Virus record (IMG/VR): IMGVR_UViG_3300027754_000075
Location: 8,748-72,747 of that record
DNA from: a virus
DNA length: 64,000 bases
Direction: 5' to 3' (one strand)
Shown one piece after another: positions 26,409-55,862 of the stretch. Both the position numbers and the translations under genes were made by a program. Positions within the stretch are counted from its first letter, which is position 1; each line of letters starts with the position of its first letter. The notes beneath the pieces are model-generated. The model was not told the DNA's origin and searched no databases. It saw only the letters and a list, made by a program, of their open reading frames with translations.

Positions 26409-28298
26409 ATGGCTGCAGTAAATAAGAATTTCGTCATAAAAAATGGGTTAGAAGTAGATACTAACCTGATTGTTGCAGATTCTCAAACTAATAAAGTAGG
26501 TATTGGTACCACAGTTCCACAATACATTCTACACGTTAATGGTGGTATTGGTGTAACTAATGCTTATGTAAGTGGTATTGCAACGATTACAACTGGGATT
26601 GTTACCAATCTTACCAGTACAAATCTTAATGTAACTGGTGTTGGTACAATTGTAACCGGTAATATTACCAATCTAACAAATACCAATCTCAATGTAACTG
26701 GTATTGCAACGATTGCAACACTGAATGCAACTGGAATCGGTGTTACTAACTTTACAGTTTATAATAATCTTTCTATTGGTGGAATCTCTACATTCACCAA
26801 TGGGCCAGTACTGATTGGTTCTGGTACTTCTACAGGAACAGCATCACAGAGACTTCAGGTAACTGGTGGGACTTATGTTTCTGGTAATCTTGGTATTGGG
26901 TCCACAAATCCAACATCTGCTCTCTTTGTTGTTGGTGATGCAAGAGTCACTGGTGTTATTACCGCAACTACATTTAGTGGAAATGTAAATGCTGGTGTGG
27001 GAACCATTACCACATTGGGTTCTACAAGTGGAACCATAACAAACCTGACTGGCACTGCAGGAACGATTACTACCCTGAATAGTACATCAGGAACCATAAC
27101 AAACCTGACTGGTACTGCAGGAACCATTACGACTTTTAATAGTACTTCTGGAACCATAACAAACCTGACTGGTACTGCAGGAACCATTACGACTTTTAAT
27201 AGTACTAATTTAAGGAGCACCAATCTCAATGTTACTGGTATCAGTACATTAGGAACAGTAAAAATATCATCAGGTATTATTACTGCAACATCAGGAGTTG
27301 TGACTTACTTTGGTGATGGTAACTTTCTAAACCTAACCTCTAATCCAAGTAGAGGTATTGGTATTGGTACTATTGGTGGTGTTGTTGGGTATGCAGTCAC
27401 CTTTATTAACTTTAAAGGTGCAGGAGTTTCTACAACACAATATAACTCAAACACTGGTATTGCAACCATCTTCTTTGAGGGTGGAGGAGGTGGAGGTGGT
27501 TCAATCAGTATTAGTACCACAGCACCAATATCTCCTGGTTCTGGTGACTTATGGTACAGTCCAGATTATGGAAGAACTTTTATCTATTATGATGAGAGTG
27601 TTGTTGGATATGGTACTGATGCATTCTGGGTAGATGCTGCACCCTTTAATGTTGGTGTGATTACATCTACAGCATTTGCTCCTGCTTCGGCATCTGCTCC
27701 AAGTATTCATTTTGCTGGTGATGTTCAGACTGGATTTTTCTCTCCGAGTTCTGGAAATATTACTGCGGTTTCGGTTGGTTCATCAATACTGAATGTAAAT
27801 CCTTCTGGTATTATTGTAACCGGTGTGGTGACTGCAACCTCTTTTGTTGGTAATGGTAGTGGACTGACTGGTGCTGGTTCTACAGTATTCATTGATACTA
27901 CAACAAATCAAGAGTTCTTCCCCCTCTTTACTGCAACTACATCAGGAACTATTACTGCATCAGGTATTTCTACCTCTAAACTGAAATATAATCCTTCTAC
28001 AGGAACTATGACTGCAGTTGATTTTAATTCCACTAGTGATATAAATCTCAAAGAGAATATTCATACAATAGGAAATGCATTAGAAATCACAGAACAACTT
28101 CGTGGTGTTTCATTTGACTGGAAAGAAACTGGTAGAAGTTCTTATGGTGTGATTGCACAAGAACTGGAAGAAGTACTCCCAGAACTCGTAAAACAAGGTG
28201 AAGTTAAATCAGTCAACTATAATGGTATTATTGGAGTATTGATAGAAGCAATCAAAGAACTCAAGAAAGAAGTAAAAGAGCTTAAAATTGATAAATAA
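26409..28298 (+). CDS. tail fibre with C-terminal peptidase S74 intramolecular chaperone
   Basis: KNFVIKNGLEV N-terminus; VGIGT repeats; FNSTSDINLKENI...GVIAQE...VNYNG..GVLIEAIKEL. Confidence 0.85.
   Translation: MAAVNKNFVIKNGLEVDTNLIVADSQTNKVGIGTTVPQYILHVNGGIGVTNAYVSGIATITTGIVTNLTSTNLNVTGVGTIVTGNITNLTNTNLNVTGIATIATLNATGIGVTNFTVYNNLSIGGISTFTNGPVLIGSGTSTGTASQRLQVTGGTYVSGNLGIGSTNPTSALFVVGDARVTGVITATTFSGNVNAGVGTITTLGSTSGTITNLTGTAGTITTLNSTSGTITNLTGTAGTITTFNSTSGTITNLTGTAGTITTFNSTNLRSTNLNVTGISTLGTVKISSGIITATSGVVTYFGDGNFLNLTSNPSRGIGIGTIGGVVGYAVTFINFKGAGVSTTQYNSNTGIATIFFEGGGGGGGSISISTTAPISPGSGDLWYSPDYGRTFIYYDESVVGYGTDAFWVDAAPFNVGVITSTAFAPASASAPSIHFAGDVQTGFFSPSSGNITAVSVGSSILNVNPSGIIVTGVVTATSFVGNGSGLTGAGSTVFIDTTTNQEFFPLFTATTSGTITASGISTSKLKYNPSTGTMTAVDFNSTSDINLKENIHTIGNALEITEQLRGVSFDWKETGRSSYGVIAQELEEVLPELVKQGEVKSVNYNGIIGVLIEAIKELKKEVKELKIDK
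27000..27206 (+). repeat. 60-bp tandem repeat (about 3.5 copies, 30-bp sub-period)
   Basis: Encodes GTITT(L/F)NSTSGTITNLTGTA; a related unit occurs near 44070-44160. Confidence 0.9.
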
Positions 28299-28323
28299 AA
28301 CAAAGAAAACCAAGCAATTAACG

Positions 28324-28386
28324 ATGATGTTAAGTACAACTACAAACTATGAAGTCTTTGGTATTGTAAGTGGAGGTTTCTTCTAA
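28324..28386 (+). pseudogene. 20-aa remnant of a fibre gene (MMLSTTTNYEVFGIVSGGFF)
   Basis: The last 17 sense codons and stop are identical to the 3' end of 29384..30178. Confidence 0.75.
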
Positions 28387-28447
28387 TTATGGCACCTTTA
28401 TTATCACGACTTGGTTTAGGAAGAAGTGGTTTTGGATTTGGTAAGAA
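28332..28447 (+). repeat. 116-bp perfect direct repeat, copy 1
   Basis: Identical to 30124-30239. Confidence 0.95.
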
Positions 28448-29339
28448 CTCTGGTAGTGTCCCTTTTTCTGCTACTGGTGGCACAAAAACAACTTCTGGTT
28501 TGTATACAATTCATACTTTTACAACACCAGGTTCAGAAACTTTTACCGCATCCGGAAGACAAACTAATGTTGAAATTATTGCGGTAGGTGGTGGTGGTGG
28601 TGGTGGAGGAGGAGATTGTGGTCCACCAGATTTCCCATCAGCTGATGGAATATCAGGATCTTCTGGAGGAATATCAAAAGGAACTTTTACTTTCTCTCCT
28701 GGAAATTATACAGTATATGTTGGTGGTAGGGGAGATGCTGGGGGAGGACACAACACCGGAACAAATAATAGTGGATCTGGGTTTAGAAATAACGGCGGAG
28801 GAGATCCTGGTGGTCAAGGTGGTGATGGGAGTTCTGGAAATGGCGGCGGCGGAGGTGGTTTTTCTGGAGTATCGCAACCTCCTGGTCCAGGGGCTATTTT
28901 TTATATTGTAGCTGGTGGCGGCGGTGGTGGTGGAGGTGGAGGTGCTCCTGGTGGATCTCCAGGAGGTGGTAGTTCGAGAGGTGGTTCTGGTTCCTATGTA
29001 CCTGGTTCAACATCTGGACAAAATGGTCCAGGAAGAACTGGAGATAATGGTGGATTTGGCGGTGGTGGAGGAGGATATACTGGACCGGGTGTTATAACCA
29101 CAATTCCTGCTGGAGGTGGAACTAGAAATAATGGTGGATCAAATTTTACTAACCCTATAGGAACAATCTTAAGTACACATGGAGGTGGAGGTGGAACATC
29201 GAGACCAGCAGATGCTCCTCCTGCAACTTATCCAACAATACCTAGTCCTGCTGGATCTGGTGGTGGTGGTGCCAGTTGTGGAGGAGGAAGTGCTGGTATG
29301 GGGCAAGATGGAGTTATTGTAATACGATATTTAACTTAA
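28389..29339 (+). CDS. Gly-rich tip adhesin A (gp38-like polyglycine type)
   Basis: ATGGTKT...YTIHTFT, VGGGGGGG runs, GQDGVIVIRY end. Confidence 0.75.
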   Translation: MAPLLSRLGLGRSGFGFGKNSGSVPFSATGGTKTTSGLYTIHTFTTPGSETFTASGRQTNVEIIAVGGGGGGGGGDCGPPDFPSADGISGSSGGISKGTFTFSPGNYTVYVGGRGDAGGGHNTGTNNSGSGFRNNGGGDPGGQGGDGSSGNGGGGGGFSGVSQPPGPGAIFYIVAGGGGGGGGGGAPGGSPGGGSSRGGSGSYVPGSTSGQNGPGRTGDNGGFGGGGGGYTGPGVITTIPAGGGTRNNGGSNFTNPIGTILSTHGGGGGTSRPADAPPATYPTIPSPAGSGGGGASCGGGSAGMGQDGVIVIRYLT

Positions 29340-29383
29340 AAAAATGATAAATAATATTATACTAAGCCGAGTAATCAACGACG

Positions 29384-30178
29384 ATGGCAATTAAAATTTC
29401 AGGAACTACTGTTATCGATGACAGTAGGAATATACAAAATATAGGCATAGCCACCGCTACTACATTCGTTGGAGCACTTACTGGAAATGCGACTGGATTA
29501 TCTGGCACTCCTAATATTACTGTTGGTAATATTGTAGGTGTAGCACTTACATTATCTGGTAATCTTACGGTTAATGGTACTCAAACCATTATCAATACTA
29601 CTAACTTAGAAATCACAGATCCATTAGTCGGTATTGGTTCTGGTAATACCACAGACGCTCAAGCAGATGGTGATGGTATCCAGATTTATGGTGCAACTAA
29701 CAAGACATTAACATTTAATAATACCAAAAAAGCATTTGAGACTAATGTTGCTTGGGCACCAAACGAAACAAGGATTATTACAGGTGCAGAAAAAATCCAT
29801 AGACAATCTGGCAATACCGTAACACTTACCTATAACTCTTCATCAAGTTCTAATGTTGGATATACTACTAATCCAAGTGGTGATGTAACAGTAAATGTTG
29901 TAGGTATTCCAACATCAAGTGATTTTGACGATCATTCTATAAGTTTTACAGTTATCACAAGATCCACAGGAACTGCAAGAACTTGTACGGCAGTAACACT
30001 AAATGGTGTAACTGAAAATATTCGTTGGGCTGGTGGTTCTTTGAGTGGAGCACTTTCAGGTGTAACGACTGCAACAGGACACGCAATCTTTAGTTTTACT
30101 GGTATCAATACTGTTGGTTCTGCAAGTACAACTACAAACTATGAAGTCTTTGGTATTGTAAGTGGAGGTTTCTTCTAA
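29384..30178 (+). CDS. short tail fibre with C-terminal tip-docking domain
   Basis: MAIKISGTTVIDDSRN; LTVNGTQTIINTT.LEITD; ends FGIVSGGFF; paralog of 50201. Confidence 0.75.
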   Translation: MAIKISGTTVIDDSRNIQNIGIATATTFVGALTGNATGLSGTPNITVGNIVGVALTLSGNLTVNGTQTIINTTNLEITDPLVGIGSGNTTDAQADGDGIQIYGATNKTLTFNNTKKAFETNVAWAPNETRIITGAEKIHRQSGNTVTLTYNSSSSSNVGYTTNPSGDVTVNVVGIPTSSDFDDHSISFTVITRSTGTARTCTAVTLNGVTENIRWAGGSLSGALSGVTTATGHAIFSFTGINTVGSASTTTNYEVFGIVSGGFF

Positions 30179-30239
30179 TTATGGCACCTTTATTATCACG
30201 ACTTGGTTTAGGAAGAAGTGGTTTTGGATTTGGTAAGAA
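30124..30239 (+). repeat. 116-bp perfect direct repeat, copy 2
   Basis: Identical to 28332-28447. Confidence 0.95.
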
Positions 30240-31200
30240 AACTATTGCTGCTATTTTTAGTGCTTATGGGGCACAATTTCAAAACGCAAACTCTTTTAGT
30301 GATTCAAGCACATCTGCAATTGATGGCACAGCAAATTATGGGGCTGTTTTTTCCTATGGAGGATCAGAAGTTTTTATCTATGGTAATTTTTCCGCAGCCG
30401 ATATCCAAACAACGATTAATTTTTATACAGGACCAGGCACTCCAGCACCTTTGACTCCAAATATTGTTGGTTTGAGGGGATATAGACTTTATAGATATCC
30501 TAATAGTGCTGCTACTGGTAGTGTTGTTAAATTTACTGGTGAAGGGGTTGGAACTGATAATCATTTGATTCACGTAAGAGGTAATGGATCAACTCAAGGG
30601 TATGTAAGTGCTCCGCATCCAAATTGGAAAACATTAGATCCCGCAGGAGAATATACTTTACTTGCAAATAAAACTTTCTTTCAGGGTGGAATAACTGGTG
30701 TATTCTCTGGAAATAATACAACTATTGATAATGATGCACCGACAAGAAATAGGGTTAAATTATTAGCAGGGTCTGGGGGATCACCTGGAAGTGGTGATAT
30801 TGCAGGAGGACCTGCTGGGGGAAATGGATATTCTTTCGGAGCTGGTTGTAGAGGTGCTGGTGGGGGTGGAGGAGGAACTCAAAATGCTGCTGGGGGTGGT
30901 GGTGGCGGGCCGCACAGAACAGGAACTCCTCCATTACCCGGAAGTGGATTTTCTGGTGGAAGGGGATCTGGGGGTGCTGCAGGTAGTGGATATGATGGAT
31001 GGTATGGTGGTGGTGGTGGTGGCAGCGATGGTGGTGATTGCAGTGGTAGTGGGTACGGTGGTGGAGGGTCAAGTAGAGTTGATCCTGGACTTTCTGGAAC
31101 AAATTCATTTTACCCACCAGCAGGTCCTTCAGTTACTCCGTACTGGTACATGAATGTTCCTACTTGGGGAAGTGGTAAAATTATAGGACATAAATCATAA
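30181..31200 (+). CDS. Gly-rich tip adhesin B
   Basis: First 19 aa identical to 28389; GYDGWYGGGGG and GGGGSS motifs. Confidence 0.75.
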   Translation: MAPLLSRLGLGRSGFGFGKKTIAAIFSAYGAQFQNANSFSDSSTSAIDGTANYGAVFSYGGSEVFIYGNFSAADIQTTINFYTGPGTPAPLTPNIVGLRGYRLYRYPNSAATGSVVKFTGEGVGTDNHLIHVRGNGSTQGYVSAPHPNWKTLDPAGEYTLLANKTFFQGGITGVFSGNNTTIDNDAPTRNRVKLLAGSGGSPGSGDIAGGPAGGNGYSFGAGCRGAGGGGGGTQNAAGGGGGGPHRTGTPPLPGSGFSGGRGSGGAAGSGYDGWYGGGGGGSDGGDCSGSGYGGGGSSRVDPGLSGTNSFYPPAGPSVTPYWYMNVPTWGSGKIIGHKS

Positions 31201-31228
31201 CTTAAATTATTTTTGTTATTTTAGAATT

Positions 31229-31825
31229 ATGAAAACTTTTTTTGATTTTATATATGTGGGAGAAAATATTGTTTCTTCTTGTGATTGTAAAAATTTAATA
31301 AAATATTTTGAAAAGCATAAAGAACTTCAGGAACCAGGAAAACAAGGAAACCGTGATATTAATAAAGAATTAAAATCTTCAACAGATATTTGTTTTATTC
31401 CGGAAGATTCTTCAAATAAAGAATGCGTTAGACATCTTAACCCTTTTCTAAAATCTCTTGATAAAGAAGTTTTAGATGTTTATCTAAAAAGATTTGAATT
31501 AGGTCTCACTCAAATGGAAAAATGGTTGTTATGTCCATATTTTAACATTCAAAGATATTTTCCTGGAGAAGGTTATTTTAATTGGCATTCTGAATCATCT
31601 TCCAAGATGTCTGCGAATAGAAAGTTTGTTTGGATGTTTTATTTGAATAGTGTTAAAAATGGAGGAACAGAATTTTATCATCAAAATTTATGTACAGAAG
31701 CAAAGGAAGGTTCTTTGGTTATATGGCCTGCTGATTGGACACATTTGCACAGAGGACAAATTGGACAAAATGAAGTAAAATATATTTTGACCGGATGGTA
31801 TACTTTTAATGGAGAAGCTTCTTAA
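31229..31825 (+). CDS. 2OG-Fe(II) oxygenase (prolyl hydroxylase-like)
   Basis: IQRY.PG..YFNWHSE...WMFYLN...GGTEF...WPADWTHLHRG...KYILTGW. Confidence 0.88.
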   Translation: MKTFFDFIYVGENIVSSCDCKNLIKYFEKHKELQEPGKQGNRDINKELKSSTDICFIPEDSSNKECVRHLNPFLKSLDKEVLDVYLKRFELGLTQMEKWLLCPYFNIQRYFPGEGYFNWHSESSSKMSANRKFVWMFYLNSVKNGGTEFYHQNLCTEAKEGSLVIWPADWTHLHRGQIGQNEVKYILTGWYTFNGEAS

Positions 31826-32380
31826 ATGTTTAAAATAAGATCGGACAATATGTTTTCATTACCAATCTACACTGTTAGAACACAGAATTGGAAAGAAAAA
31901 AAGAAAAAAATAAAAAAAGAAATCAATTTTAAAAATATAGAAAAAAAAGAACTTCATACTTTTGGAACAGATAGGCAAAATGATGGTAAATCATATATAA
32001 AACATTTTAGTAATATTTTTAAAGAAGAATTGGATCTTTTTTTGGATGAAATAAAAAAAGAATCTATGATTATAACTGACATGTGGACTGTCAGATATAG
32101 ACACTCAGAATATCAATCAGTTCATAATCATGGTTCTTTTGGATTTTCCTCAGTTCTTTATTTGGATTTCAATTCAAAACTTCACGATACAACTAATTTT
32201 ATTTCACCATTTAATGATTTTTATACAGATCATTTAACTTGGTATGTTCCATATGATATTGAAGAAGGAGATTTTTTATTTTTTCCTTCAGTAGTCCTTC
32301 ACCATTGTACTCCAAATTTTTCCTTTATAACTAGAAGATGTATAGGATTTGATATTAAGTTTGAACTACCTAGGAGTTAA
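31826..32380 (+). CDS. putative 2OG-Fe(II) oxygenase (TIGR02466-like)
   Basis: QSVHNH...FSSVLY...EGD..FFPS..LH...RRCIGFD. Confidence 0.8.
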   Translation: MFKIRSDNMFSLPIYTVRTQNWKEKKKKIKKEINFKNIEKKELHTFGTDRQNDGKSYIKHFSNIFKEELDLFLDEIKKESMIITDMWTVRYRHSEYQSVHNHGSFGFSSVLYLDFNSKLHDTTNFISPFNDFYTDHLTWYVPYDIEEGDFLFFPSVVLHHCTPNFSFITRRCIGFDIKFELPRS

Positions 32381-32381
32381 A

Positions 32382-33077
32382 ATGACTTTTACTGATGAAC
32401 AAATAAAAATACAACAAAAAGAAAGATATCTTTCATGTTGGAGTCGGAATGAAAATTTTGACACAGATGGATATCTTTTTATTAAAAATTTTTTAGATCT
32501 AGAAAATTTAAATCATCCAAAAGATGTTATTCCGGGAATAAAAGAATATTTTGGAAACATAAATTTGTGGGATCATAGGAATGAAGATCAAGTACCAGGA
32601 TCCTCGTCAAGAATAAAATATCCTCCATATAAAAAATTATATTATGAAACGAAAGAAAAAATTGAAAATATATTAGGAAGAAAACTTTACACAACATATT
32701 ACCTTGATAGAATATACTACCCAAATCAACAACTTTATAAACATTTGGACAGAGATGCTTGTGAGATTTCTGTGTCTATTCACTTATCTTCAAATCTAAA
32801 AGAAAATTGGCCTTTTAAATTGGAAACAAGAACTTGGTATACGAATAAAAAAATGAAAGAACTTTGGAAAGAAGGTGAAGAAGTAGAGATTCTTTTCAAT
32901 CCCGGAGATGCAATAATTTACATGGGATGTGAAGTTCCACACTGGAGAGATCCTTTAAAATCGAAACATAATAAATTGAGTCGTATTTTTAAAAATGATG
33001 ATACATACTATCATCAATTATTTTTTCATTATGTTTTTTCAAATGGTGATAGGGCACATTATTATCGACATGTATGA
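32382..33077 (+). CDS. 2OG-Fe(II) oxygenase-like protein
   Basis: LYKHLDRDACEISVS...PGDAIIY.G...HWR...HQLFFHY; start moved to the ATG after AGGAG at 32372. Confidence 0.8.
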   Translation: MTFTDEQIKIQQKERYLSCWSRNENFDTDGYLFIKNFLDLENLNHPKDVIPGIKEYFGNINLWDHRNEDQVPGSSSRIKYPPYKKLYYETKEKIENILGRKLYTTYYLDRIYYPNQQLYKHLDRDACEISVSIHLSSNLKENWPFKLETRTWYTNKKMKELWKEGEEVEILFNPGDAIIYMGCEVPHWRDPLKSKHNKLSRIFKNDDTYYHQLFFHYVFSNGDRAHYYRHV

Positions 33078-33732
33078 AAAAAATAAAAAAAATATGGAAA
33101 AAACTTTAAAAGATTTAAATGAGACTTGGAAAGAAACTCCTTTTGAAAAAAAACACTTTTTAGATACTTATGATAATGAATTTTTTAAATTTAAAAATAA
33201 ATTAGATTTAAGAATTCTAGAACTTGGAATTGATAAAGGCGGATCTCTTGAACTGTGGGAATCTTATTTTTCTAACTTATCCTTATTAGTTGGAGTTGAA
33301 AAAGACAATTCAAAAATAGAGGGAAATTTTGGTGATAAAATCAGAATTGAAATAGGAGATTTGAGTAAAATAGAATTTTATGATAGAATAAAAAGATATG
33401 GATCATTTGATATTATTATTGATGATGCATCACATAAAGCATCGGATATAATTTTATCTTTCAATAATCTTTTCCCAATCCTTTCTGTTGGTGGAATATA
33501 TTGTATTGAAAATGTTTATTACTCAGGAACTGGAGAGTACAATAACCAATCCCTTCAAAAATTTATTCAAGATTTGATTATAAATGCAAATGGAATTACT
33601 GATTGTTTAGATTTGCCCGAGAGAATGAATCAATTTTCTTGGTGGATAAAATCTATTCATATAGAAAATCAATTAATTATTATTAGAAAAGGATTATGGA
33701 ACTATGAGAAAAGACATTCTGGTTGTAGATAA
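33070..33732 (+). CDS. class I SAM-dependent methyltransferase (sugar O-methyltransferase-like)
   Basis: ILELGIDKGGSL.LW...FDIIIDDASH...GGIYCIE; start is 33070 or 33094. Confidence 0.8.
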   Translation: MYEKNKKNMEKTLKDLNETWKETPFEKKHFLDTYDNEFFKFKNKLDLRILELGIDKGGSLELWESYFSNLSLLVGVEKDNSKIEGNFGDKIRIEIGDLSKIEFYDRIKRYGSFDIIIDDASHKASDIILSFNNLFPILSVGGIYCIENVYYSGTGEYNNQSLQKFIQDLIINANGITDCLDLPERMNQFSWWIKSIHIENQLIIIRKGLWNYEKRHSGCR

Positions 33733-34228
33733 CTTTATAGGACCAACAGATCTTGGTGCAGCATATTTAGATTTAAGAAACAATTTTTATTGGAATGTTG
33801 CTTCAGATGCTCCAGGATCAAATATAAGAAAGGCTGCTTTTGGAAGAGGATTTGAGCATCAAGATCTTTTAAAAGCATATGATACTATTCCTATGGTAAG
33901 TTATTTTGATAATTACATTAAAAGCAGAGGATTGCCAAACTGTGGGTCATTAAGACAATTTTATGTCAATTGTGTTAAACCTGGAGATAAATTTAACTAT
34001 CATGAAGATAGATCAGGAAGCACTGTTTTGATATACGTAAACCCAGTATGGAAATGGCATTGGGGATCTGGTACAAAATTTAAAAAAGGTTTTAAAACTT
34101 TTATCGTTAAACCAAAACCAGGGAGAATGATTTGTTTTCCTGGCAAAACAAAACATAAACCCATTCCCCCAAATTTTTGGTATAATGATTTTGGTAGATT
34201 GTCTATTGCATTTCAATATGAGTTATAA
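33704..34228 (+). CDS. 2OG-Fe(II) oxygenase
   Basis: YHED...TVLIYVNPVW...WGSGT.F...PKPGR...H...RLSIAF. Confidence 0.8.
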   Translation: MRKDILVVDNFIGPTDLGAAYLDLRNNFYWNVASDAPGSNIRKAAFGRGFEHQDLLKAYDTIPMVSYFDNYIKSRGLPNCGSLRQFYVNCVKPGDKFNYHEDRSGSTVLIYVNPVWKWHWGSGTKFKKGFKTFIVKPKPGRMICFPGKTKHKPIPPNFWYNDFGRLSIAFQYEL

Positions 34229-34830
34229 TTAAATAATTGATAATCTTTGAAATAATACTCTCGAATCCAACTTTTTACTTCATCCTCACATTTTAATTTA
34301 TCATAAAAATCTGTTGGTAATCTATCATAAGTATATCTTTTACATTTAACTGACAAATTAACATTAAAATTTTCACTTATCCATTGCAAAAAATTTTCAC
34401 CAAATCCATCTTCATATTTCCATACTTTTGTAGTTGGAGATAAAAATTTATACTGATCTAAAAACCAATTTGTTTCATAACTTGTTATCTCTTTTTCAAA
34501 AGTTAAGTAACTGAACAAATTTTCTTTGCTTGAAAGTATAAAATCTATATTAATTTTATTATTATGCAAAACTTGACTTATTGAAGAAATGAATTTATTA
34601 TATGGATCTCTAACCACACAAAATTTTGGCAAATCTTTTACATTTAAATAATAATCATATAATGGATAATGTAAATGATGTTGGTTTACTCCTCTAATTT
34701 GAGATTCATCTTTTTTTGAATTCCATTCATTTGCAATAAATAATTTTATGACATGTCTACCTGCAGTTCTTGGTATATGAACAAAATATAATTCTCTTTC
34801 TTTATCAACAAGTTTGGGCATCAGATACAT
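34213..34830 (-). CDS. sulfotransferase (Sulfotransfer_2-like)
   Basis: YFVHIPRTAG (5'-PSB), VVRDPY..FISS (3'-PB), YYFKDYQLFNY end. Confidence 0.8.
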   Translation of the reverse strand: MYLMPKLVDKERELYFVHIPRTAGRHVIKLFIANEWNSKKDESQIRGVNQHHLHYPLYDYYLNVKDLPKFCVVRDPYNKFISSISQVLHNNKINIDFILSSKENLFSYLTFEKEITSYETNWFLDQYKFLSPTTKVWKYEDGFGENFLQWISENFNVNLSVKCKRYTYDRLPTDFYDKLKCEDEVKSWIREYYFKDYQLFNYNSY

Positions 34831-34850
34831 TAAATAATTATAGATTATAT

Positions 34851-35480
34851 ATGGATATAAAATTACATTCTCTTTTTCCGACCGCTGTTATTTCAGTTCT
34901 TGATAATAATTTTAAATTAACTCAAGAAGAAAAGAAAGTGATTTGGAAATATAAATTAGATGAAAGTGATAATTATCACAACTGTTATGCAAGTAAAAGT
35001 GGTAGAATATTGGAAGATCGTCGTCTCAAACGTTTAAAAAAACATTGTCAACATTATCTTGATTTATATGTAAAAGATATAATGAAGTGCGATAATAAGA
35101 TTCAAATTACAAATTCATGGGGTAACTATTCTTTCACGGGCAATTGCCACAGAAATCATCGTCATTCAAATAGTGTTTTAAGTGGTATTTATTATGTGCA
35201 ATGTAATAATTCAATTCCTATTTTACAATTTGAAAGTCAAACATCTAGATATTTCTTAGAATATAGAGTTGAGGAACAAACTGTTTTTAATAGTTCAACA
35301 TATCAGATAAAATTAGAGGATGGTATGTTAGTAATTTTTCCATCACACATCTGGCATTCTGTTCCCGAAAATAAATCATCTAATTGGAGAATATCCATGG
35401 CATTTAATTCTTTTCTTTTGGGAGAAATTGACAATTATGGATATGAAGAATTGAAAATTAAAAGCACCAATCATGTCTAA
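34851..35480 (+). CDS. putative 2OG-Fe(II) oxygenase (TIGR02466-like)
   Basis: LFPT...ITNSWGN...HRHSNSVLSGIYY...IFPSHIWHSV...RISMAFN; start reassigned to MDIK. Confidence 0.85.
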   Translation: MDIKLHSLFPTAVISVLDNNFKLTQEEKKVIWKYKLDESDNYHNCYASKSGRILEDRRLKRLKKHCQHYLDLYVKDIMKCDNKIQITNSWGNYSFTGNCHRNHRHSNSVLSGIYYVQCNNSIPILQFESQTSRYFLEYRVEEQTVFNSSTYQIKLEDGMLVIFPSHIWHSVPENKSSNWRISMAFNSFLLGEIDNYGYEELKIKSTNHV

Positions 35481-36108
35481 TTCTACAATATTCCCTCTTT
35501 TTTCAACGCCAGTATATAAAACAGAAATTTTATTTAATGAAAAAGAACAATATTTTTTAAAAAATAAATTAGATAAAATAAATTATTTAAAATATGACTC
35601 TGATAATGGATATTCAACAAAACAAAAAAATATATTAAATATATCTTCTCTTTTTAATATAAAACGCCAAATAAATGATCATGTTAATAAGTATGTTTTT
35701 GAAACTTTATGTTTAAACAAAATTGATTTGTACATAACTTCTTCCTGGATAAATCTTCACCAAAAAGGAAATTATGCACAACCACATATACATCAAAATT
35801 CTATTTTTAGTGGAGTTTTATATTTAGAAGTTCCAAACGAAAATTGTGGACAAATTACCTTTCACTTTCCTTTTCAATTACCAACCTTTACATCAAATAC
35901 AATTTATCCAGGAGTAAAAAATAGGAATATATACAATTCACACTCTTGGAGTTTTAATCCAAAATCAGGAGATTTATTAATTTTTCCTTCTCATCTAATG
36001 CACGATGTTGGAATAAATCAATCAGATCAAAACAGATATAGTTTGTCATTTAATTATTTTGCTAGAGGTAAAATATCAGGAGAAAAAACAAAAGAATTAT
36101 ATATTTAA
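35473..36108 (+). CDS. putative 2OG-Fe(II) oxygenase (TIGR02466-like)
   Basis: LFSTP...SSWIN...HIHQNSIFSGVLY...IFPSHLMH.V...RYSLSFN. Confidence 0.85.
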   Translation: MSNSTIFPLFSTPVYKTEILFNEKEQYFLKNKLDKINYLKYDSDNGYSTKQKNILNISSLFNIKRQINDHVNKYVFETLCLNKIDLYITSSWINLHQKGNYAQPHIHQNSIFSGVLYLEVPNENCGQITFHFPFQLPTFTSNTIYPGVKNRNIYNSHSWSFNPKSGDLLIFPSHLMHDVGINQSDQNRYSLSFNYFARGKISGEKTKELYI

Positions 36109-36132
36109 ATAAATAACTTAAAAAGGTATAAA

Positions 36133-36309
36133 ATGGCAATTTCATCTGAAGGACTATCTCAAGAAGAATATGAAAATTTAGATATGTTTCCATCTTGGAA
36201 TTTGATTGATGGTGTTTGGACTCCTCCAATTCCTAAACCAACTGATGGAATGATATATTGCTGGGATGAAGAAAATGAAAATTGGAAATGTGCAAATATT
36301 CAGGAATAA
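36133..36309 (+). CDS. small Trp/Pro-rich protein (58 aa), fibre-associated type
   Basis: Not in the ORF track. FPSWNL...WTPPIPKPTDG..YCWDEE...W; has its own late promoter at 36109; same motif as 49846. Confidence 0.7.
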   Translation: MAISSEGLSQEEYENLDMFPSWNLIDGVWTPPIPKPTDGMIYCWDEENENWKCANIQE

Positions 36310-36433
36310 AATTTTTTACAATTGTTGCAATTAAGAAAATGTCACCTTTATTGGAACGATTTGTTCTGATGATAAGTGTAGAGTGAATGTGAACTTTAAC
36401 TTCTTTTGATTGATAAATATCTAAAAAACCACA

Positions 36434-36766
36434 ATGGCAGTTCCAGCAGTCAATATTACAATTGAACAGGGTGCGGATTTTGCATCTTCATTTACGATTA
36501 CAAATGCAAATGGTTCTGTATATTCATTAGTAGGTGCAAGTGCAGTCGCAAAAATCAAAAAGTTTCCAGAGTCCACTACTTCTTATTCTTTCTCAACCAC
36601 GATTACAATCGCAACAGGTGTGATTGCTCTTGCGATGACCGATACTGTTACTTCCACAATCACTCCAGGAAGATATTTTTATGATATCTTGGTCACAAAC
36701 AGTTCCGGACTCAAAACCAGAGTGATTGAAGGAATGGCTCTGGTGACTGCAGGTATCTCGACATAA
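36434..36766 (+). CDS. small structural adaptor (BppU/Ig-like)
   Basis: NITIEQGADF...GRYFYDILV...TRVIEG motif. Confidence 0.6.
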   Translation: MAVPAVNITIEQGADFASSFTITNANGSVYSLVGASAVAKIKKFPESTTSYSFSTTITIATGVIALAMTDTVTSTITPGRYFYDILVTNSSGLKTRVIEGMALVTAGIST

Positions 36767-36791
36767 ATATTTAAAATTTCTTACCTTACTC

Positions 36792-37115
36792 ATGGCAGAT
36801 TTTAAGGTATCTCAAAACAGTGAGTCAAGTGCTCATAGTGTGAAATTGAGTTCTGGTAATAGTTTTACAATCAGTCAGGAGAAAACAGTAGTGGCAGAAT
36901 TTCTTTCAGATTTAGCAGACGTTGCAGTCTCAAATCTTCCTGCAAGTGATAACTATGTTCTGACATATGATGCATCACTTCAAAAATATACTTTAGTTCC
37001 TGCAGATCAAGTTTTACAATCTGCTGCCGAGGATAATCAACTTCCTCAAGAGTTTATAGACCAACTGGATGTTGCTCTAGATGATAAAATTGATGTGGAT
37101 GCGGGAGGCTTTTAA
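36792..37115 (+). CDS. hypothetical structural protein
   Basis: LSDLADV...YVLTYD fibre-type motif; ends IDVDAGGF. Confidence 0.6.
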   Translation: MADFKVSQNSESSAHSVKLSSGNSFTISQEKTVVAEFLSDLADVAVSNLPASDNYVLTYDASLQKYTLVPADQVLQSAAEDNQLPQEFIDQLDVALDDKIDVDAGGF

Positions 37116-37146
37116 AATCATAAATAGGTAGAAAGAGTATAAAAAG

Positions 37147-38598
37147 ATGCCAGCTCCTGTTTTACAGTTTAAGAGGGGTCTTCTTGCTGATCTTCCCGGT
37201 CTTAGGGATGGTGAACCCGGATTTACAACTGATTCATATGACTTATATGTAGGTATTGATAGTACCACAAATAATAATAAGTTTTTTGGTTCTCATCGTT
37301 ACTGGACAAAAAATACAGCATCTACAGGAAGTGGTGTTAATTTTGTAGAGGGTGCTGCAAATGGAATACAATATATCACTCTCAAGTCACCAGATACTCT
37401 TGCAGGTATCACAACCTTTGTGCTTCCGGGGTCTCAGGGTTCGGCATCTTCCGTTCTGACGAATGATGGTAGTGGAAATCTAAGTTGGTCAAGTGGTTCT
37501 GCATCTCCGGTTTTTAGTGGTATTGCATCTTTTACAGACACAACCAACAATACTTTAGGTGACGAGAATACTGGTGCGGTTCAAATTGATGGTGGTCTTG
37601 GTATTGCAAAAAACCTTACAGTTAAGCAAAATCTTCATGTTGGTGGGTATGCAGAGTTTGTTGGAGTCGTAACATTTAAGGGTGGAACAATTAATATTGG
37701 TGATGGAAACACCGATGATATTAATGTCGGTGGTGAGTTTATTTCAAGTCTCCTTCCAAATACCGATGATGCTCACGATTTAGGTACTAATGCAAAGAGA
37801 TGGAGAAATCTGAATGTAGTAAGTGTTGCGACTACAAATATTAGTGTTACTGGTCTTTCTACCTTTACTGGTGCTATTGATGCGAACGGTGGTGCTGATA
37901 TTTCTGGTGGTGAAACAACTCTTTCTTCGGCAACGGTATCTGACCTAACTTCTGGTAGAGTAGTTCTTGCCGGAACTTCCGGTTCTATTCAAGATAGTGC
38001 AAATCTTACCTTTGGTGCTGGTGGACTCGTTATTGGTGCTAGTGGTATTAATGTTACTGGCGTTTCTACTTTCTCTACAGATTTGGTTGTTGGTGGTGAT
38101 ATAAGAATTAATGGTAATGATATTAAGGCATCTGATGGTACAACTGCGATTACACTTGCAGGTAACGATGTTACGATTGCTGATGACCTCACAGTTGGTG
38201 GAAACCTTTATGTAAATGGATCTACAACTCAAGTTAATACTGCTGCTCTTACAGTAGAAGACAGAACGATTGATTTGGGTATTGTGAATGGTGCTGCTCC
38301 TTCAGGTGCAACCACTTGGGATTTGGGTGTTCTCTTCAATTACCATGCAAGTGGTGCTGCAAAAAAATCAGCAGTTATTTGGGAACATGTAGACTCAAGA
38401 TTTAAGTTCGCAAGTGTTCTTACTGCTGACACTGATGGTTCAACTGTAGACACCCCACAACTTACAGTCACGACATTTGCACCGATTGAGATTGCATCTC
38501 TCTTTGTGAATGATTGTGCAGGAGCATCACAGGTAATTTCTTGCACAGGAACTACAAGAAAACTAGAAAACATTACGATTGACTGTGGAACTTTCTAA
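37147..38598 (+). CDS. tail fibre with Mtd/hyaluronidase-like N-terminus
   Basis: LQFKRG...L.DGEPGFTTD; NLYVNGSTTQVNT..LTVEDR; ends IDCGTF. Confidence 0.75.
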   Translation: MPAPVLQFKRGLLADLPGLRDGEPGFTTDSYDLYVGIDSTTNNNKFFGSHRYWTKNTASTGSGVNFVEGAANGIQYITLKSPDTLAGITTFVLPGSQGSASSVLTNDGSGNLSWSSGSASPVFSGIASFTDTTNNTLGDENTGAVQIDGGLGIAKNLTVKQNLHVGGYAEFVGVVTFKGGTINIGDGNTDDINVGGEFISSLLPNTDDAHDLGTNAKRWRNLNVVSVATTNISVTGLSTFTGAIDANGGADISGGETTLSSATVSDLTSGRVVLAGTSGSIQDSANLTFGAGGLVIGASGINVTGVSTFSTDLVVGGDIRINGNDIKASDGTTAITLAGNDVTIADDLTVGGNLYVNGSTTQVNTAALTVEDRTIDLGIVNGAAPSGATTWDLGVLFNYHASGAAKKSAVIWEHVDSRFKFASVLTADTDGSTVDTPQLTVTTFAPIEIASLFVNDCAGASQVISCTGTTRKLENITIDCGTF

Positions 38599-40819: not shown

Positions 40820-41953
40820 ATGGCAAAGTTAGTCAGTGGTCGGTTACCAAGATTAAATGTAGGAATTGCTTCTTATAGTGAAAATCAAACAACACTATCA
40901 GTTGTAGGGATTTCATCTTTTCAGCAAGTAGTTCTAAATGGTTCAGTCAGTACTGGTACAACTACTGGGACTTCGGGGCAATATTTAAAATCTGTTGGAA
41001 TAGGTGTAACTTGGGCATCATTTCCAACATTAAGAACCGGAAATGTTTTTACTGCAGGAGTTGCACAAACTTCCTTTGCAGTTTCTTATAATGTTGGTTT
41101 TGTTGATGTTTATATAAATGGTGTTCGTTTAACAGACAGTGAATTCACCGGAACAAGTGGAACTTCTATTGTTCTTAATGAATCTTGTTTTGGTGGAGAA
41201 ACAGTAGATATTCTTGCGTATAACACTACAAGCACTGGTTCGGGAGGTGGAGGAATCAGCACTGAATCTCAAACTTTAAATAATGTATTAGGACTTGGGA
41301 ATACCTCATCCAATGGGATGAGTGTTGGTGTTATTACTGCAACTTCTTTTGTTGGAAATTTAACAGGAACAGCAACCTATGCGACTAATGCTGGTATAGC
41401 AACTTATGCGACTAATGCTGGTATAGCAACTTATGCGACTAATGCTGGAATAGCAACTTATGCTACTAATGCTGGTATAGCAACAAATGCTCAAGGTTTA
41501 ACTGGTACTCCTAATATATCTGTGGGTATCGTTACAGTAACAGACTCTCGTATTCAATCTGTTGCTGAAAAGACAACACTTGTGAATGGTAACACAGTAA
41601 GTCTTGTTTATAACACTGGTGGTGGTAATATTGCAATCTGTACCAATCCAAGTGGTGATATTACACTGAATGTAACTGGTATCCCTACTGATAGTACATT
41701 TGATAATTACTCACTTGCCTTTAGTGTGATTGTATCAAATACAGGAACAGCAAGAAGTTGTACTGCAATTAATCTGAATGGATTATCAAGAACAATTAAA
41801 TGGTTTGGTGGTTCTCTTGCAGCAGCAATCACTGGCGTGACTACATCAAATGGATATGATAGTTATAGTTTTACTGGAATCAATACTGTAGGTTCTGCAA
41901 GTACAACTGCAAATTATATTGTACTTGGAAGTGTAAATGGAAGTTATAGATAA
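40820..41953 (+). CDS. short tail fibre with C-terminal tip-docking domain
   Basis: DVYINGVRL domain; ATYATNAGI repeats; C-terminal domain homologous to 29384 and 50201. Confidence 0.75.
   Translation: MAKLVSGRLPRLNVGIASYSENQTTLSVVGISSFQQVVLNGSVSTGTTTGTSGQYLKSVGIGVTWASFPTLRTGNVFTAGVAQTSFAVSYNVGFVDVYINGVRLTDSEFTGTSGTSIVLNESCFGGETVDILAYNTTSTGSGGGGISTESQTLNNVLGLGNTSSNGMSVGVITATSFVGNLTGTATYATNAGIATYATNAGIATYATNAGIATYATNAGIATNAQGLTGTPNISVGIVTVTDSRIQSVAEKTTLVNGNTVSLVYNTGGGNIAICTNPSGDITLNVTGIPTDSTFDNYSLAFSVIVSNTGTARSCTAINLNGLSRTIKWFGGSLAAAITGVTTSNGYDSYSFTGINTVGSASTTANYIVLGSVNGSYR
41371..41484 (+). repeat. 27-bp tandem repeat, four copies
   Basis: agcaac(c/t)tatgc(g/t)actaatgctgg(t/a)at; a related array lies near 47770-47930. 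Confidence 0.9.
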
Positions 41954-49195: not shown

Positions 49196-49849
49196 ATGGG
49201 TGCAAGAAGTACTAGAAATACAACACAAAATAATCGCAGTGACGGACACTTATTAGAGTACTTCCGTAATACTTTTCTTCGTGGTGGTGGTGGTACTAAT
49301 GCTTCTGTTACCGCAAGCTATGTGATTGTGGGCGGCGGCGGTGGCGCTGTAATTAGTGGCGCTGATGGCTTGGGCGGTGATGTAATAAATGGAGATACAC
49401 CAATTCCAAATGGGTCCTATTCAATAACTATTGGATCCGGTGGCAGCAGAGGCGGAGGGCTTGGAAGTTCATCTTCTTTTATGAGTTTTATCGCTGCGGG
49501 CAGCACCAGAACCACAACGGTAACAGTTAACGGGGAAACATTCTCAGGCAAAGACGCAGGCTCGCCAAATTCAGCAATAAAAGGATCAGGCGCTTTAGCT
49601 TCTTCTATCTATTTTGTAGCAGCTTCTTGCAGCAATGGCGAATCTAGCGAAAGAAGATGTGATGTTTCAGGAGGGACTTGGGATCCAGGTGGATATAGAA
49701 ACGGGGATGGAAACAATGGAGTTGTTATACTGACAATACCAACAATTTACAACTCAAGAATTGTTGCATCGGGCGCAGTTGTAACAACAAGCGGCAGTAA
49801 TACAATATATAGATTTAATTCCTCCGGTTCTTTGGTGACATCATCATGA
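49196..49849 (+). CDS. Gly-rich tip adhesin (short)
   Basis: YVIVGGGGG, YSITIGSGG, GNNGVVIL, TIYRFNSSGSL. Confidence 0.7.
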   Translation: MGARSTRNTTQNNRSDGHLLEYFRNTFLRGGGGTNASVTASYVIVGGGGGAVISGADGLGGDVINGDTPIPNGSYSITIGSGGSRGGGLGSSSSFMSFIAAGSTRTTTVTVNGETFSGKDAGSPNSAIKGSGALASSIYFVAASCSNGESSERRCDVSGGTWDPGGYRNGDGNNGVVILTIPTIYNSRIVASGAVVTTSGSNTIYRFNSSGSLVTSS

Positions 49850-55832: not shown

Positions 55833-55862
55833 AATTTAAAATAATTCAAACACATTTAATTT

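What the first reader, a model, noticed from the sequence alone, without database searches (positions are those of the whole stretch)
30181..36309. Tailoring cluster 1: six 2OG-Fe(II) oxygenases, a methyltransferase and a sulfotransferase directly behind a Gly/Pro-rich adhesin
Seen: the cluster starts 28 nt after the tip B stop with no obvious promoter or terminator. Its genes abut or overlap, it is visibly more AT-rich than the fibre genes, and it ends at a small Trp/Pro protein of the kind that follows another tip (49846). Established: many 2OG oxygenases occur in cyanomyovirus islands and are usually labelled auxiliary metabolic or repair genes, with substrates unknown. Inference: they are late-expressed enzymes that hydroxylate and then methylate or sulfate the adjacent adhesins, travelling as tip plus tailoring enzymes, like a RiPP cluster acting on a virion protein.
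Basis: partly seen in the sequence, partly recalled or inferred. Interest (0 to 1): 0.8.

Follow-up and report, generated by a model that had tools for sequence, protein, structure and literature searches.

The report
Fibre-tip gene followed by oxygenase cassette
In an uncultured T4-like phage related to cyanophages, a glycine-rich tail-fibre-tip gene is followed directly by six iron-oxygenase genes, a methyltransferase and a sulfotransferase, an arrangement that recurs in related phages and suggests, without proving, that the enzymes chemically decorate the fibre tips.

Summary
Behind the Gly-rich ORF 30181-31200 lie six oxygenase-fold genes, an O-methyltransferase, a sulfotransferase and a 58-aa Trp/Pro ORF.

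Three corrections:
- The sulfotransferase is on the minus strand.
- Three of the oxygenases carry HxH...H, not HxD/E...H.
- The AT-richness comes from amino-acid composition. GC3 is the same as in the fibre genes, so it is no sign of foreign origin.

- In 49 dereplicated related phage loci, a Gly-rich gene lies directly upstream of 18 of 65 enzyme runs. Shuffling gene order gives 6.5.
- The T4-type late-promoter motif precedes 60 of 96 fibre genes but almost no Gly-rich or enzyme gene. This fits late read-through from fibre to tip to enzymes.

Against it:
- No modification has been shown.
- The nearest solved relatives of the methyltransferase act on sugars.
- Distant relatives of the oxygenases sit in replication or metabolic regions of other phages.
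- Ends of fibre modules may simply tolerate insertions.

Tandem dioxygenase arrays in cyanophages, and hydroxylation followed by sulfation of co-encoded Gly-rich proteins in bacteria, were both described or predicted in 2010 (PMC2938197). This scan has also flagged fibre-linked arrays on at least eight other genomes. I class this as a variant of a known kind. The hypothesis is testable and unproven.

The parts
29340..29383 (+). Late-promoter-like motif GATAAATAA at 29347, 31 nt before the fibre gene. It is the only such motif upstream of the cluster.
   Evidence: 24 ATAAATA on the + strand of the window, 14 of them 15-52 nt before a + strand start. None between 29348 and 34735.
29384..30178 (+). 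Fibre-like gene (264 aa, phrog_36132). It ends 2 nt before the tip gene.
   Evidence: Paralogues at 50201-51082 and 52096-53544 also precede Gly-rich ORFs.
30181..31200 (+). Tip B: a 339-aa protein with a conserved N-terminal beta-rich half and a Gly-rich C-terminal half. It is the putative receptor-binding tip and the candidate substrate.
   Evidence: 13-sequence family; P253-G254, W274 and Y275 invariant. No Pfam hit. AlphaFold model poor (pLDDT 44).
31229..31825 (+). ox1: 2OG-Fe(II) oxygenase of the Oxy_3 (prolyl-4-hydroxylase-like) family, with H120-S-E122...H174.
31826..32380 (+). ox2: Oxy_5 (PF13759) oxygenase-fold protein with HxH...H.
32382..33077 (+). ox3: phrog_2954 ('ferrochelatase' by name), in fact a double-stranded beta-helix oxygenase with H121-x-D123...H187.
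33070..33732 (+). Class I SAM O-methyltransferase. Its catalytic domain resembles the solved methyltransferases 3ssm and 8ia9.
   Evidence: The start codon is uncertain (32995 or 33070).
33704..34228 (+). ox4: phrog_274 ('DNA endonuclease V' by name), in fact a 2OG oxygenase with H100-x-D102...H151...R165. Weak match to the FlmC family.
34213..34830 (-). Sulfotransferase (PF03567 Sulfotransfer_2) on the opposite strand.
   Evidence: A contig of run X9 spans 33393-35775 with the same order.
34851..35480 (+). ox5: Oxy_5 / TIGR02466 family protein.
   Evidence: 68.8 bits against a cut-off of 62.5.
35473..36108 (+). ox6: Oxy_5 / TIGR02466 family protein.
   Evidence: 96.6 bits.
36133..36309 (+). 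58-aa Trp/Pro ORF with its own late-promoter-like motif at 36109. It shares a C-terminal motif with ORF 49846-50172, which follows another Gly-rich ORF.
   Evidence: The orthologue in L004 is 71% identical and lies in the same position.

Best explanation
The cluster is an accessory cassette of tailoring enzymes attached to the 3' end of a late fibre-to-tip transcription unit of a T4-like phage of the cyanomyovirus lineage. The proposed course is as follows. The late promoter before 29384 drives the fibre gene, the Gly-rich tip gene and, by read-through, the enzyme genes. The enzymes are therefore made in the cytoplasm at the same time as the fibre proteins. The oxygenases add hydroxyl groups. 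The metal-dependent O-methyltransferase and the PAPS-dependent sulfotransferase then cap some of them. The most likely target is the phage's own Gly-rich tip proteins, either their side chains or sugars attached to them. The enzyme set changes together with the tip type.

Shown: the gene content, the catalytic motifs, the recurrence of the tip-to-enzyme order, and the promoter-motif pattern.

Inferred: co-transcription, late timing, the substrate, and the order of the chemical steps.
For: (1) Six oxygenase-fold genes with intact metal-binding motifs, plus an O-methyltransferase and a sulfotransferase.

(2) Conserved tip-to-enzyme order.
- L004 (tip 65% identical): tip, then ox1, ox2, ox3-like, an extra Oxy_5, MT, ox4, ox5, ox6 and the small ORF.
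- L005 (tip 47% identical): tip, then MT, ox1, an Oxy_5 and ox4 on the minus strand.
- L004 also has a second Gly-rich protein (PF21722) followed directly by a Sulfotransfer_2 gene.

(3) Counts across loci. Among 74 IMG/VR loci plus the window, 44 of 106 enzyme runs that have an upstream neighbour sit directly behind a gene with at least 18% Gly. Gly-rich genes make up 108 of 1020 non-enzyme genes. After dereplication to 49 locus groups the count is 18 of 65, against 6.5 +/- 2.3 in shuffles (0 of 5000 shuffles reach 18). Fibre-like genes are directly upstream in only 3 of 65, against 8.8 expected. The gaps are -4 to 113 nt, and 43 of 45 pairs are on the same strand.

(4) Several enzyme families come first behind a Gly-rich gene. 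By BLAST label these are p61b, ox1, MT, ox5-like and ox6-like. By Pfam of the ORFs that follow Gly-rich genes they also include a sulfotransferase, a Trp halogenase and further Oxy_5 proteins.

(5) ATAAATA within 70 nt upstream: 60 of 96 fibre-like genes; 0 of 28 Gly-rich genes that follow a fibre gene; 2 of 18 first enzymes behind a Gly-rich gene; 1 of 84 enzymes behind an enzyme. The chance rate is 0.024.

(6) Contigs of three coded runs from three studies bridge the tip-to-ox1 junction at about 97-98% identity (records 3, 19, 26).

(7) Glycine-rich domains at fibre tips are receptor-binding in cyanophage Pam3 gp24 and in S16 gp38 (PMC9608196, passages). The neighbouring ORF 28389-29339 matches the Gly_rich_2 profile (hhalign 98.6%).

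(8) Iyer et al. 2010 predicted hydroxylation followed by sulfation of co-encoded Gly-rich or tail-collar proteins in bacteria (PMC2938197, passages).
Against: - No mass-spectrometric, expression or genetic data exist for this or any related phage in what I could reach.
- The loci are related phages, so conserved synteny inflates the counts. With stricter dereplication by the first enzyme of each run, the share falls to 9 of 47 (80% identity) and 7 of 38 (60% identity), against a background of 10.6%.
- Gly-rich genes are the last genes of fibre modules. 'Behind a tip' therefore cannot be told apart from 'between two modules', which may simply be a tolerated insertion site.
- Of 108 Gly-rich genes, 63 are not followed by a recognised enzyme. 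In the window, 3 of 5 Gly-rich ORFs are not.
- The solved relatives of the methyltransferase and the family label of the sulfotransferase point to sugars.
- The sulfotransferase is antisense to the proposed transcript.
- Relatives of ox6, p61b and ox1 lie elsewhere in other phages: next to nrdAB, talC, hli and psbA in S-B64 and S-RIM2; among small hypothetical ORFs in S-PM2; and next to clamp loader, late sigma factor, UvsX or helicase genes in other contigs.
- Tip B itself could not be shown to belong to a known adhesin family.
Confidence: 0.4

Rival explanations
1. Permissive-site cargo with a metabolic or secondary-metabolite role. The enzymes act on host metabolites or build or modify a small peptide-derived compound. 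They sit behind tip genes only because the ends of fibre modules tolerate insertions.
For: - Iyer et al. 2010 read the Syn9 tandem dioxygenase and halogenase array as secondary-metabolite synthesis (PMC2938197, passages).
- Sullivan et al. 2010 proposed links to 2OG and nitrogen status (PMC3037559, passages).
- Relatives lie in metabolic-gene regions in S-B64 and S-RIM2.
- Cassette content differs between close relatives at the same junction. L045 has a Gly-rich gene followed by p61b, whereas the window has 7 extra genes between them.
Against: - The sites hold almost only oxygenases, transferases and halogenases. No photosynthesis or carbon-metabolism genes were seen among the ORFs scanned there.
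- No peptide synthetase, precursor peptide or exporter was seen in the window.
- The enzyme genes lack the late motif of their own and lie inside late units.
Confidence: 0.25
2. Host-surface glycan remodelling. The methyltransferase, the sulfotransferases and the glycosyltransferase of the second cluster alter host lipopolysaccharide or other envelope sugars late in infection. This could keep progeny from sticking to debris or block superinfection.
For: - The solved relatives of the methyltransferase are 3ssm ('Methyltransferase') and 8ia9 ('Demethylmacrocin O-methyltransferase'). I recall both as sugar O-methyltransferases.
- The sulfotransferase belongs to a family that PHROGs names galactose-3-O-sulfotransferase.
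- Cluster 2 holds a GT4 glycosyltransferase and a second sulfotransferase with a faint NoeE match.
- Relatives of the sulfotransferase lie beside NolO-like carbamoyltransferases in S-T4, and a carbamoyltransferase lies beside the oxygenases in S-SSM5.
Against: - It does not explain six to fourteen oxygenases.
- None of the enzymes was examined for export signals, and none matched a membrane-protein family.
- It does not explain why the cassettes sit specifically behind Gly-rich genes.
Confidence: 0.2
3. Nucleic-acid repair or modification, as the old 'DNA repair' and 'denV' labels imply.
For: - The ox3 model also matches AlkB.
- PHROG and record names include 'DNA endonuclease'.
- Single phrog_61 genes lie next to replication and repair genes in other T4-like contigs.
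Against: - The 'endonuclease V' and 'ferrochelatase' names are not borne out. These proteins are oxygenases with HxD...H.
- The best fold match of ox3 is a protein prolyl hydroxylase.
- The partners here are an O-methyltransferase and a sulfotransferase, not nucleic-acid enzymes.
Confidence: 0.07

Closest known systems
Tandem dioxygenase (plus tryptophan halogenase) arrays of cyanomyoviruses, type example Syn9 (Iyer, Abhiman, de Souza and Aravind 2010, PMC2938197; passages read)
   Same: Many tandem, mutually distant double-stranded beta-helix dioxygenases in one phage gene row. The oxygenase families are shared with cyanomyoviruses (T4-GC 412, 615 and 155 in S-SM2 and S-SSM5).
   Different: The window has no halogenase and no JmjC member, although related loci do (L051, L072, L070). 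It has an O-methyltransferase and sulfotransferases instead. The published reading was secondary-metabolite synthesis, not fibre modification.
Bacterial operons of beta-hydroxylase, PhyH-methyltransferase and sulfotransferase genes with phage tail-collar or secreted glycine-rich proteins (prediction in PMC2938197)
   Same: The same logic and the same enzyme classes. [quoted passage not shown]
   Different: Those operons are bacterial, often include PAPS synthetase, and are themselves untested predictions. No APS kinase lies on this contig (the contig is 35% complete). No tail-collar domain appeared in the six fibre ORFs scanned with Pfam.
Glycine-rich receptor-binding tip domains: Pam3 gp24 and S16 gp38 (PMC9608196, passages); Pfam PF21722 Gly_rich_2
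   Same: A Gly-rich protein encoded right behind a fibre gene. 36 of 70 Gly-rich ORFs from the window and related loci pass the PF21722 cut-off. ORF 28389-29339 matches that family's profile.
   Different: Tip B itself gives no significant match, and its model is too poor to compare folds. No enzymatic modification is known for gp38 or gp24.
Collagen-type prolyl or lysyl hydroxylation, including viral cases (PBCV-1 prolyl 4-hydroxylase; mimivirus L230 hydroxylase-glycosyltransferase; both recalled, not looked up)
   Same: A virus-encoded 2OG oxygenase would act on a Gly/Pro-rich structural protein. ox1 is Oxy_3 (P4H-like), and the tip has an invariant Pro-Gly.
   Different: The tip has no Gly-X-Y triplet repeat. 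Only one related locus holds a true collagen-repeat protein (L082). The match of ox1 to solved P4Hs is weak (E 0.016).
CmcJ/CmcI step of cephamycin synthesis (as described in PMC2938197)
   Same: A 2OG oxygenase makes a hydroxyl group that a dedicated O-methyltransferase then caps.
   Different: The substrate there is a small molecule. There is no sequence evidence that this methyltransferase is a CmcI orthologue.
RiPP biosynthetic clusters
   Same: A ribosomal product is encoded next to its tailoring enzymes.
   Different: No leader/core precursor, recognition element, protease or exporter was seen. The candidate substrate is a 339-aa virion protein. This is an analogy only.

Membership tests
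Classical 2OG-Fe(II) dioxygenase superfamily (double-stranded beta-helix) | Double-stranded beta-helix fold | tested here: met
   Pfam PF13640 or PF13759 above cut-off for ox1, ox2, ox5 and ox6. ox4 by hhalign to Oxy_3, 95.9%. ox3 by AlphaFold (pLDDT 91.9) and Foldseek to P4H, AlkB and PHD2.
Classical 2OG-Fe(II) dioxygenase superfamily (double-stranded beta-helix) | H-x-D/E...H iron triad | tested here: met
   Met for ox1 (H120, E122, H174), ox3 (H121, D123, H187) and ox4 (H100, D102, H151). See the next row for ox2, ox5 and ox6.
Classical 2OG-Fe(II) dioxygenase superfamily (double-stranded beta-helix) | H-x-D/E...H iron triad in the three Oxy_5 proteins | tested here: not met
   The alignment of 10 Oxy_5 proteins has invariant H105, H107 and H177 (HxH...H), with no conserved acid two residues after either His. 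Pfam itself calls PF13759 'putative'.
Classical 2OG-Fe(II) dioxygenase superfamily (double-stranded beta-helix) | Conserved basic residue after the distal His, to bind 2-oxoglutarate | tested here: met
   ox4 R165 is invariant. R188 is nearly invariant in Oxy_5. R189 is nearly invariant in the ox3 family. K184 is conserved in ox1 orthologues. That these residues bind 2OG is inferred.
Prolyl 4-hydroxylase (for ox1) | Specific similarity to characterised P4Hs and a peptide-binding groove | tested here: inconclusive
   PF13640 at 39.9 bits. Solved P4Hs match only at E 0.016 over 59 residues. No model of ox1 was made.
TIGR02466 / PF13759 family | Score above the curated cut-off | tested here: met
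   ox5 68.8 bits and ox6 96.6 bits against a cut-off of 62.5. ox2 passes Pfam only (39.5 against 27) and fails NCBIfam (17 bits). The solved members 2rg4 and 3bvc are uncharacterised.
Methyltransferases of the 3ssm / 8ia9 type (recalled as MycE/TylE sugar O-methyltransferases) | Catalytic-domain similarity | tested here: met
   phmmer E 4e-16 (3ssm, residues 193-328 of 419) and 2e-10 (8ia9). A Gly-rich SAM-binding-like motif ELGIDKGGS is visible in the sequence (the motif meaning is recalled).
Methyltransferases of the 3ssm / 8ia9 type (recalled as MycE/TylE sugar O-methyltransferases) | N-terminal auxiliary domain of the approximately 400-aa enzymes | tested here: not met
   The protein has only 220-245 aa. 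The match covers only the C-terminal half of the solved chains.
Sulfotransfer_2 (PF03567) | Full-length match above cut-off, and PAPS-binding motifs | tested here: met
   25.8 bits against 22, covering profile positions 4-252 of 252. HIPRTAG and RDPYNKFISS are visible in the sequence. Their reading as the 5'-PSB and 3'-PB motifs is recalled, not tested.
Gly_rich_2 (PF21722) / gp38-type glycine-rich tip domain, for tip B | Profile match or fold match | tested here: not met
   No Pfam hit at E 0.1. hhalign to a 14-member Gly_rich_2 alignment gives 10.6%. The PDB profile search finds nothing. The model has pLDDT 44. Atlas neighbours score below 0.9 and are leads only.
Gly_rich_2 (PF21722), for the neighbouring ORF 28389-29339 | Profile match | tested here: met
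   hhalign 98.6%, E 1.4e-15, although Pfam hmmscan reported nothing.
Syn9-type dioxygenase/halogenase array | Several tandem dioxygenases of distinct families | tested here: met
   Six in cluster 1, in at least four families (Oxy_3, Oxy_5, phrog_2954, phrog_274).
Syn9-type dioxygenase/halogenase array | Tryptophan halogenase and a JmjC (MINA/No66-like) member | tested here: not met
   None in clusters 1 or 2 of the window. They are present in related loci L051, L072 and L070.
RiPP cluster | Short precursor with leader and core, recognition element, leader protease | tested here: not met
   Pfam and PHROG scans of all ORFs from 28389 to 38598 show none of these families. The scans would not detect a short precursor peptide, so that feature was not tested.

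The most novel reading that the evidence does not exclude
Tail-fibre tips of T4-like aquatic phages are chemically diversified after translation. A swappable set of oxygenases, O-methyltransferases, sulfotransferases and, in relatives, halogenases is inherited together with each Gly-rich tip. It adds hydroxyl, methoxy and sulfate groups to the receptor-binding surface. Host range would then be set by enzyme repertoire as well as by tip sequence. This would also give the long-unexplained, very abundant cyanophage 2OG oxygenases their natural substrate.
Probability: 0.3. Interest if true: 0.85.

Novelty: new variant of a known kind. Interest (0 to 1): 0.5.

Why it matters
2OG-Fe(II) oxygenases are among the commonest accessory genes of marine and freshwater T4-like phages. 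Their substrates have been unknown since the first genomes. The published guesses are DNA repair, 2-oxoglutarate and nitrogen sensing, or secondary metabolites (PMC3037559, PMC2938197).

A reproducible link to Gly-rich fibre-tip genes and to late transcription units turns this into a direct experiment. The experiment is to look for +16, +30 and +80 Da on tip proteins of cultured relatives. If it is positive, phage receptor-binding proteins would carry enzyme-made chemical groups, which matters for predicting host range. If it is negative, the arrays are cargo at tolerated sites, and the search should move to metabolites or host glycans.

This window alone cannot decide. The phage is uncultured, and the same pattern has already been flagged elsewhere in this scan.

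Tried and rejected
- DNA searches of the cluster against phage records, near and distant, found nothing. tblastn with tip B found nothing. Records of the window's own genome, or of one very near it, may be left out of this collection, as those outputs state.
- AT-richness as a sign of foreign origin: rejected, because GC3 is equal.
- The exact T4 late consensus TATAAATA gave 4 hits, not above shuffles. The shorter ATAAATA showed the positional bias.
- The search for related loci with the 7-member Oxy_3 alignment failed because the alignment was too diverse. I used two tighter alignments instead.
- The single-sequence scan with the sulfotransferase gave only 4 short loci, which I did not analyse further.
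- hhalign of the ox3 family against Oxy_3 was not significant (0.2%). The question was settled by fold.
- The tip B model has pLDDT 44, so no fold search was run on it.
- PDB profile searches with the tip B and Gly_rich_2 alignments gave nothing meaningful.
- Clustering Gly-rich proteins with low-complexity masking split them too finely. I did not use it for counting independent events.
- No APS kinase lies on the contig. The contig is 35% complete, so this says little.
- No RNA holder was listed for the stretch.
- Laid contigs: some bins are thinly covered in some runs. The listed joints lie in Gly-rich repeats or have short sides (at most 34 letters) at 85% likeness. I take none as a real deletion, and none joins across the enzyme cluster.
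- Expression timing from the literature: searches found nothing usable. PMC7238727 and its supplement list orthologue groups but no temporal class for oxygenases. The Syn9 transcriptome paper is not held.
- Searches for print on phage fibre hydroxylation or prolyl hydroxylase in cyanophages returned no paper whose title or abstract makes this claim. I judged this from listings only.
- I did not attempt complex prediction. An enzyme with its substrate is a poor use of that tool by its own description.

Full report
**What the window is.**
PHROG scans show a T4-like structural module: tail tube, baseplate hub, gp5-like hub-lysozyme, a 1954-aa fibre and many further fibre-like ORFs. The window lies on a 72.7-kb IMG/VR virus contig rated 35% complete. 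A tail protein is at most 48% identical to cultured phages. The best matches are Synechococcus myoviruses. The phage therefore belongs to the cyanomyovirus lineage, but its host is not known. Near-identical DNA is held by runs labelled freshwater or lake metagenome.

**The observation.**
The Gly-rich ORF 30181-31200 is followed after 28 nt by ox1, ox2, ox3, MT, ox4, ST, ox5, ox6 and a 58-aa ORF, all tightly packed.
- Four oxygenases pass Pfam cut-offs.
- ox4 is sub-threshold. Its family profile matches Oxy_3 (95.9%) and it keeps HxD...H...R.
- ox3 is named 'ferrochelatase' by PHROGs. It gave a confident model (pLDDT 91.9) whose best structural matches are a Pseudomonas prolyl hydroxylase, AlkB and PHD2. 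Its family keeps HxD...H.
- The three Oxy_5 proteins have HxH...H instead.
- The methyltransferase is closest to the solved chains 3ssm and 8ia9.

The cluster is AT-rich, but GC3 equals that of the fibre genes. The difference reflects Gly-, Ala- and Thr-rich fibres, not a foreign origin. The 58-aa ORF shares a 24-residue motif with the ORF that follows another Gly-rich gene.

**Is the tip an adhesin?**
Not shown. Tip B has 13 relatives in the large protein collection, none named. They share a conserved N-terminal half and a Gly-rich C-terminal half with an invariant Pro-Gly. Tip B has no Pfam, PHROG or PDB match. It has no significant profile match to Gly_rich_2, and its model is poor.

Its neighbour 28389-29339 shares the same N-terminus and does match Gly_rich_2. 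Of 70 Gly-rich ORFs from the window and related loci, 36 pass that family's cut-off. Solved glycine-rich tip domains (Pam3 gp24, S16 gp38) bind receptors (PMC9608196, passages). A receptor-binding tip is therefore a reasonable inference from position and composition.

**Linkage.**
All three IMG/VR loci with a tip B relative keep an ox1 orthologue behind it. The two loci with longer downstream DNA keep a whole cassette. Its order and content differ between them. The L004 cluster lacks a sulfotransferase. One sits instead directly behind another Gly-rich protein further along that locus.

Scans with two oxygenase alignments gave 72 more loci. Simple ORF maps show a recurring pattern of fibre, then Gly-rich gene, then enzymes.
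- Raw count: 44 of 106 enzyme runs have a Gly-rich gene directly upstream. Gly-rich genes are 10.6% of non-enzyme genes.
- After dereplication to 49 locus groups: 18 of 65, against 6.5 expected from shuffling gene order within loci. No shuffle in 5000 reached 18. Other fibre-like genes are directly upstream less often than expected (3 against 8.8).
- Stricter dereplication by the first enzyme weakens this: 21 of 69, 9 of 47 and 7 of 38 at 95, 80 and 60% identity.

The loci are related phages, so none of these figures is a probability of independent events. Several different enzyme families come first behind Gly-rich genes. The Gly-rich proteins are very diverse, with 69 clusters at 70% identity among 108.

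**Transcription.**
The T4-type late motif has a strong positional bias. In the window, 14 of 24 copies lie 15-52 nt before a start codon. Across representative loci it precedes:
- 60 of 96 fibre-like genes;
- 0 of 28 Gly-rich genes that follow a fibre gene;
- 2 of 18 first enzymes behind a Gly-rich gene;
- 1 of 84 enzymes behind an enzyme.

The chance rate is 0.024. In the window the motif at 29347 is the last one before 34736. No terminator-like site follows the tip. This fits read-through from fibre to tip to enzymes, but it is inference. No RNA data were available. How the antisense sulfotransferase is expressed is unexplained.

**Evidence against a fixed tie to fibres.**
- The best cultured relatives of ox6 (39% identity or less) lie between nrdAB-talC and hli-psbA in S-B64 and S-RIM2.
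- The p61b family lies within the fibre region in S-SM2, and among unannotated neighbours (one called 'tail fiber') in Bellamy. It lies at the border of the fibre region in S-SSM5, and among small hypothetical ORFs in S-PM2.
- Distant ox1 relatives (30-41% identity) are single genes next to clamp loader, late sigma factor, UvsX, helicase, head or baseplate genes.
- Relatives of the sulfotransferase occur in three cultured phages, each time at a border of structural genes.

**Prior knowledge.**
Sullivan et al. 2010 found 2OG oxygenases in 14 of 16 cyanomyoviruses and proposed DNA repair or 2OG-related roles (PMC3037559, passages). Iyer et al. 2010 described the Syn9 tandem dioxygenase and halogenase array and read it as secondary-metabolite synthesis. 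In the same paper they predicted that bacterial operons of hydroxylases, methyltransferase fusions and sulfotransferases modify co-encoded tail-collar or glycine-rich proteins, by hydroxylation followed by sulfation (PMC2938197, passages).

Earlier notes of this scan report fibre-linked oxygenase and halogenase arrays on eight other genomes. Those notes led me to that paper. My searches found no paper stating that phage fibre tips are modified by such enzymes (listings only).

**Verdict.**
The genes are real and the pattern is not a chance feature of this window. The tailoring reading is the best single explanation at about 0.4, and it is unproven. The rivals are cargo at tolerated sites acting on metabolites, host glycan remodelling, and nucleic-acid repair. 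This window is a variant of the known array type: it has no halogenase and carries an O-methyltransferase and sulfotransferases. I score interest at 0.5. The question is old and now testable. But this phage is uncultured, the idea has a 2010 precedent, and the scan has met the pattern repeatedly.

Noticed in passing
window 28332-28477 and 30124-30269: A 146-nt direct repeat (90% identical) spans the last codons of a fibre gene and the first codons of the Gly-rich gene. Upstream of 28389 the fibre-end part is only a remnant, because the real fibre gene ends at 28298. It looks like a recombination junction for swapping tip cassettes.
   Followed up: partly
window 54549-62341: A second enzyme cluster starts 1 nt after ORF 53549-54547 (15% Gly). 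It holds a phrog_274 oxygenase, a glycosyltransferase-like ORF, two DUF6445 proteins, a Sulfotransfer_3/1 protein, a 609-aa GT4 glycosyltransferase, two Oxy_3, a phrog_2954 and an Oxy_5. The last three genes have higher GC3 (0.27-0.30). In locus L045 they follow a Gly-rich gene directly, so the first seven genes look like an insertion.
   Followed up: partly
phrog_2954, phrog_274, phrog_1644; L002 10081-10581: Several database names are misleading. 'Ferrochelatase' and 'DNA endonuclease V' families are oxygenases with HxD...H. 'Minor coat protein' phrog_1644 matches DUF6445. The S-RIM2 ORF annotated as 'tail fiber protein' reads like a phrog_274 oxygenase by eye (not scanned).
   Followed up: partly
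L051 6647-8062; L072 8629-9762; L070 6286-6780: Tryptophan halogenase genes lie directly behind a Gly-rich gene (L051) or inside an oxygenase run (L072). A JmjC-domain gene lies inside another run (L070).
   Followed up: no
window 33704-34228: ox4 gives a weak NCBIfam match to the FlmC family of 2OG oxygenases (44.5 bits, far below the cut-off of 240). I recall FlmC as part of the Caulobacter flagellin-modification genes, which would be another surface-filament context.
   Followed up: no
window 26409-28298 and 42818-46615: Two fibre proteins end in a Peptidase_S74 (endosialidase chaperone) domain, which I recall as a self-cleaving C-terminal assembly domain.
   Followed up: no
window 52608-52751; 41310-41538; 47700-47955: A perfect 72-nt tandem duplication lies inside fibre gene 52096-53544. 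Repeats with a 27-nt period lie in two other fibre-region ORFs.
   Followed up: no
window 28300-37200: Near-identical DNA is held by 20 listed runs from 18 coded studies, mostly labelled freshwater or lake metagenome. Ten of them hold at least half of the sampled words, and three may be the source. The nearest cultured relatives are marine Synechococcus phages.
   Followed up: partly
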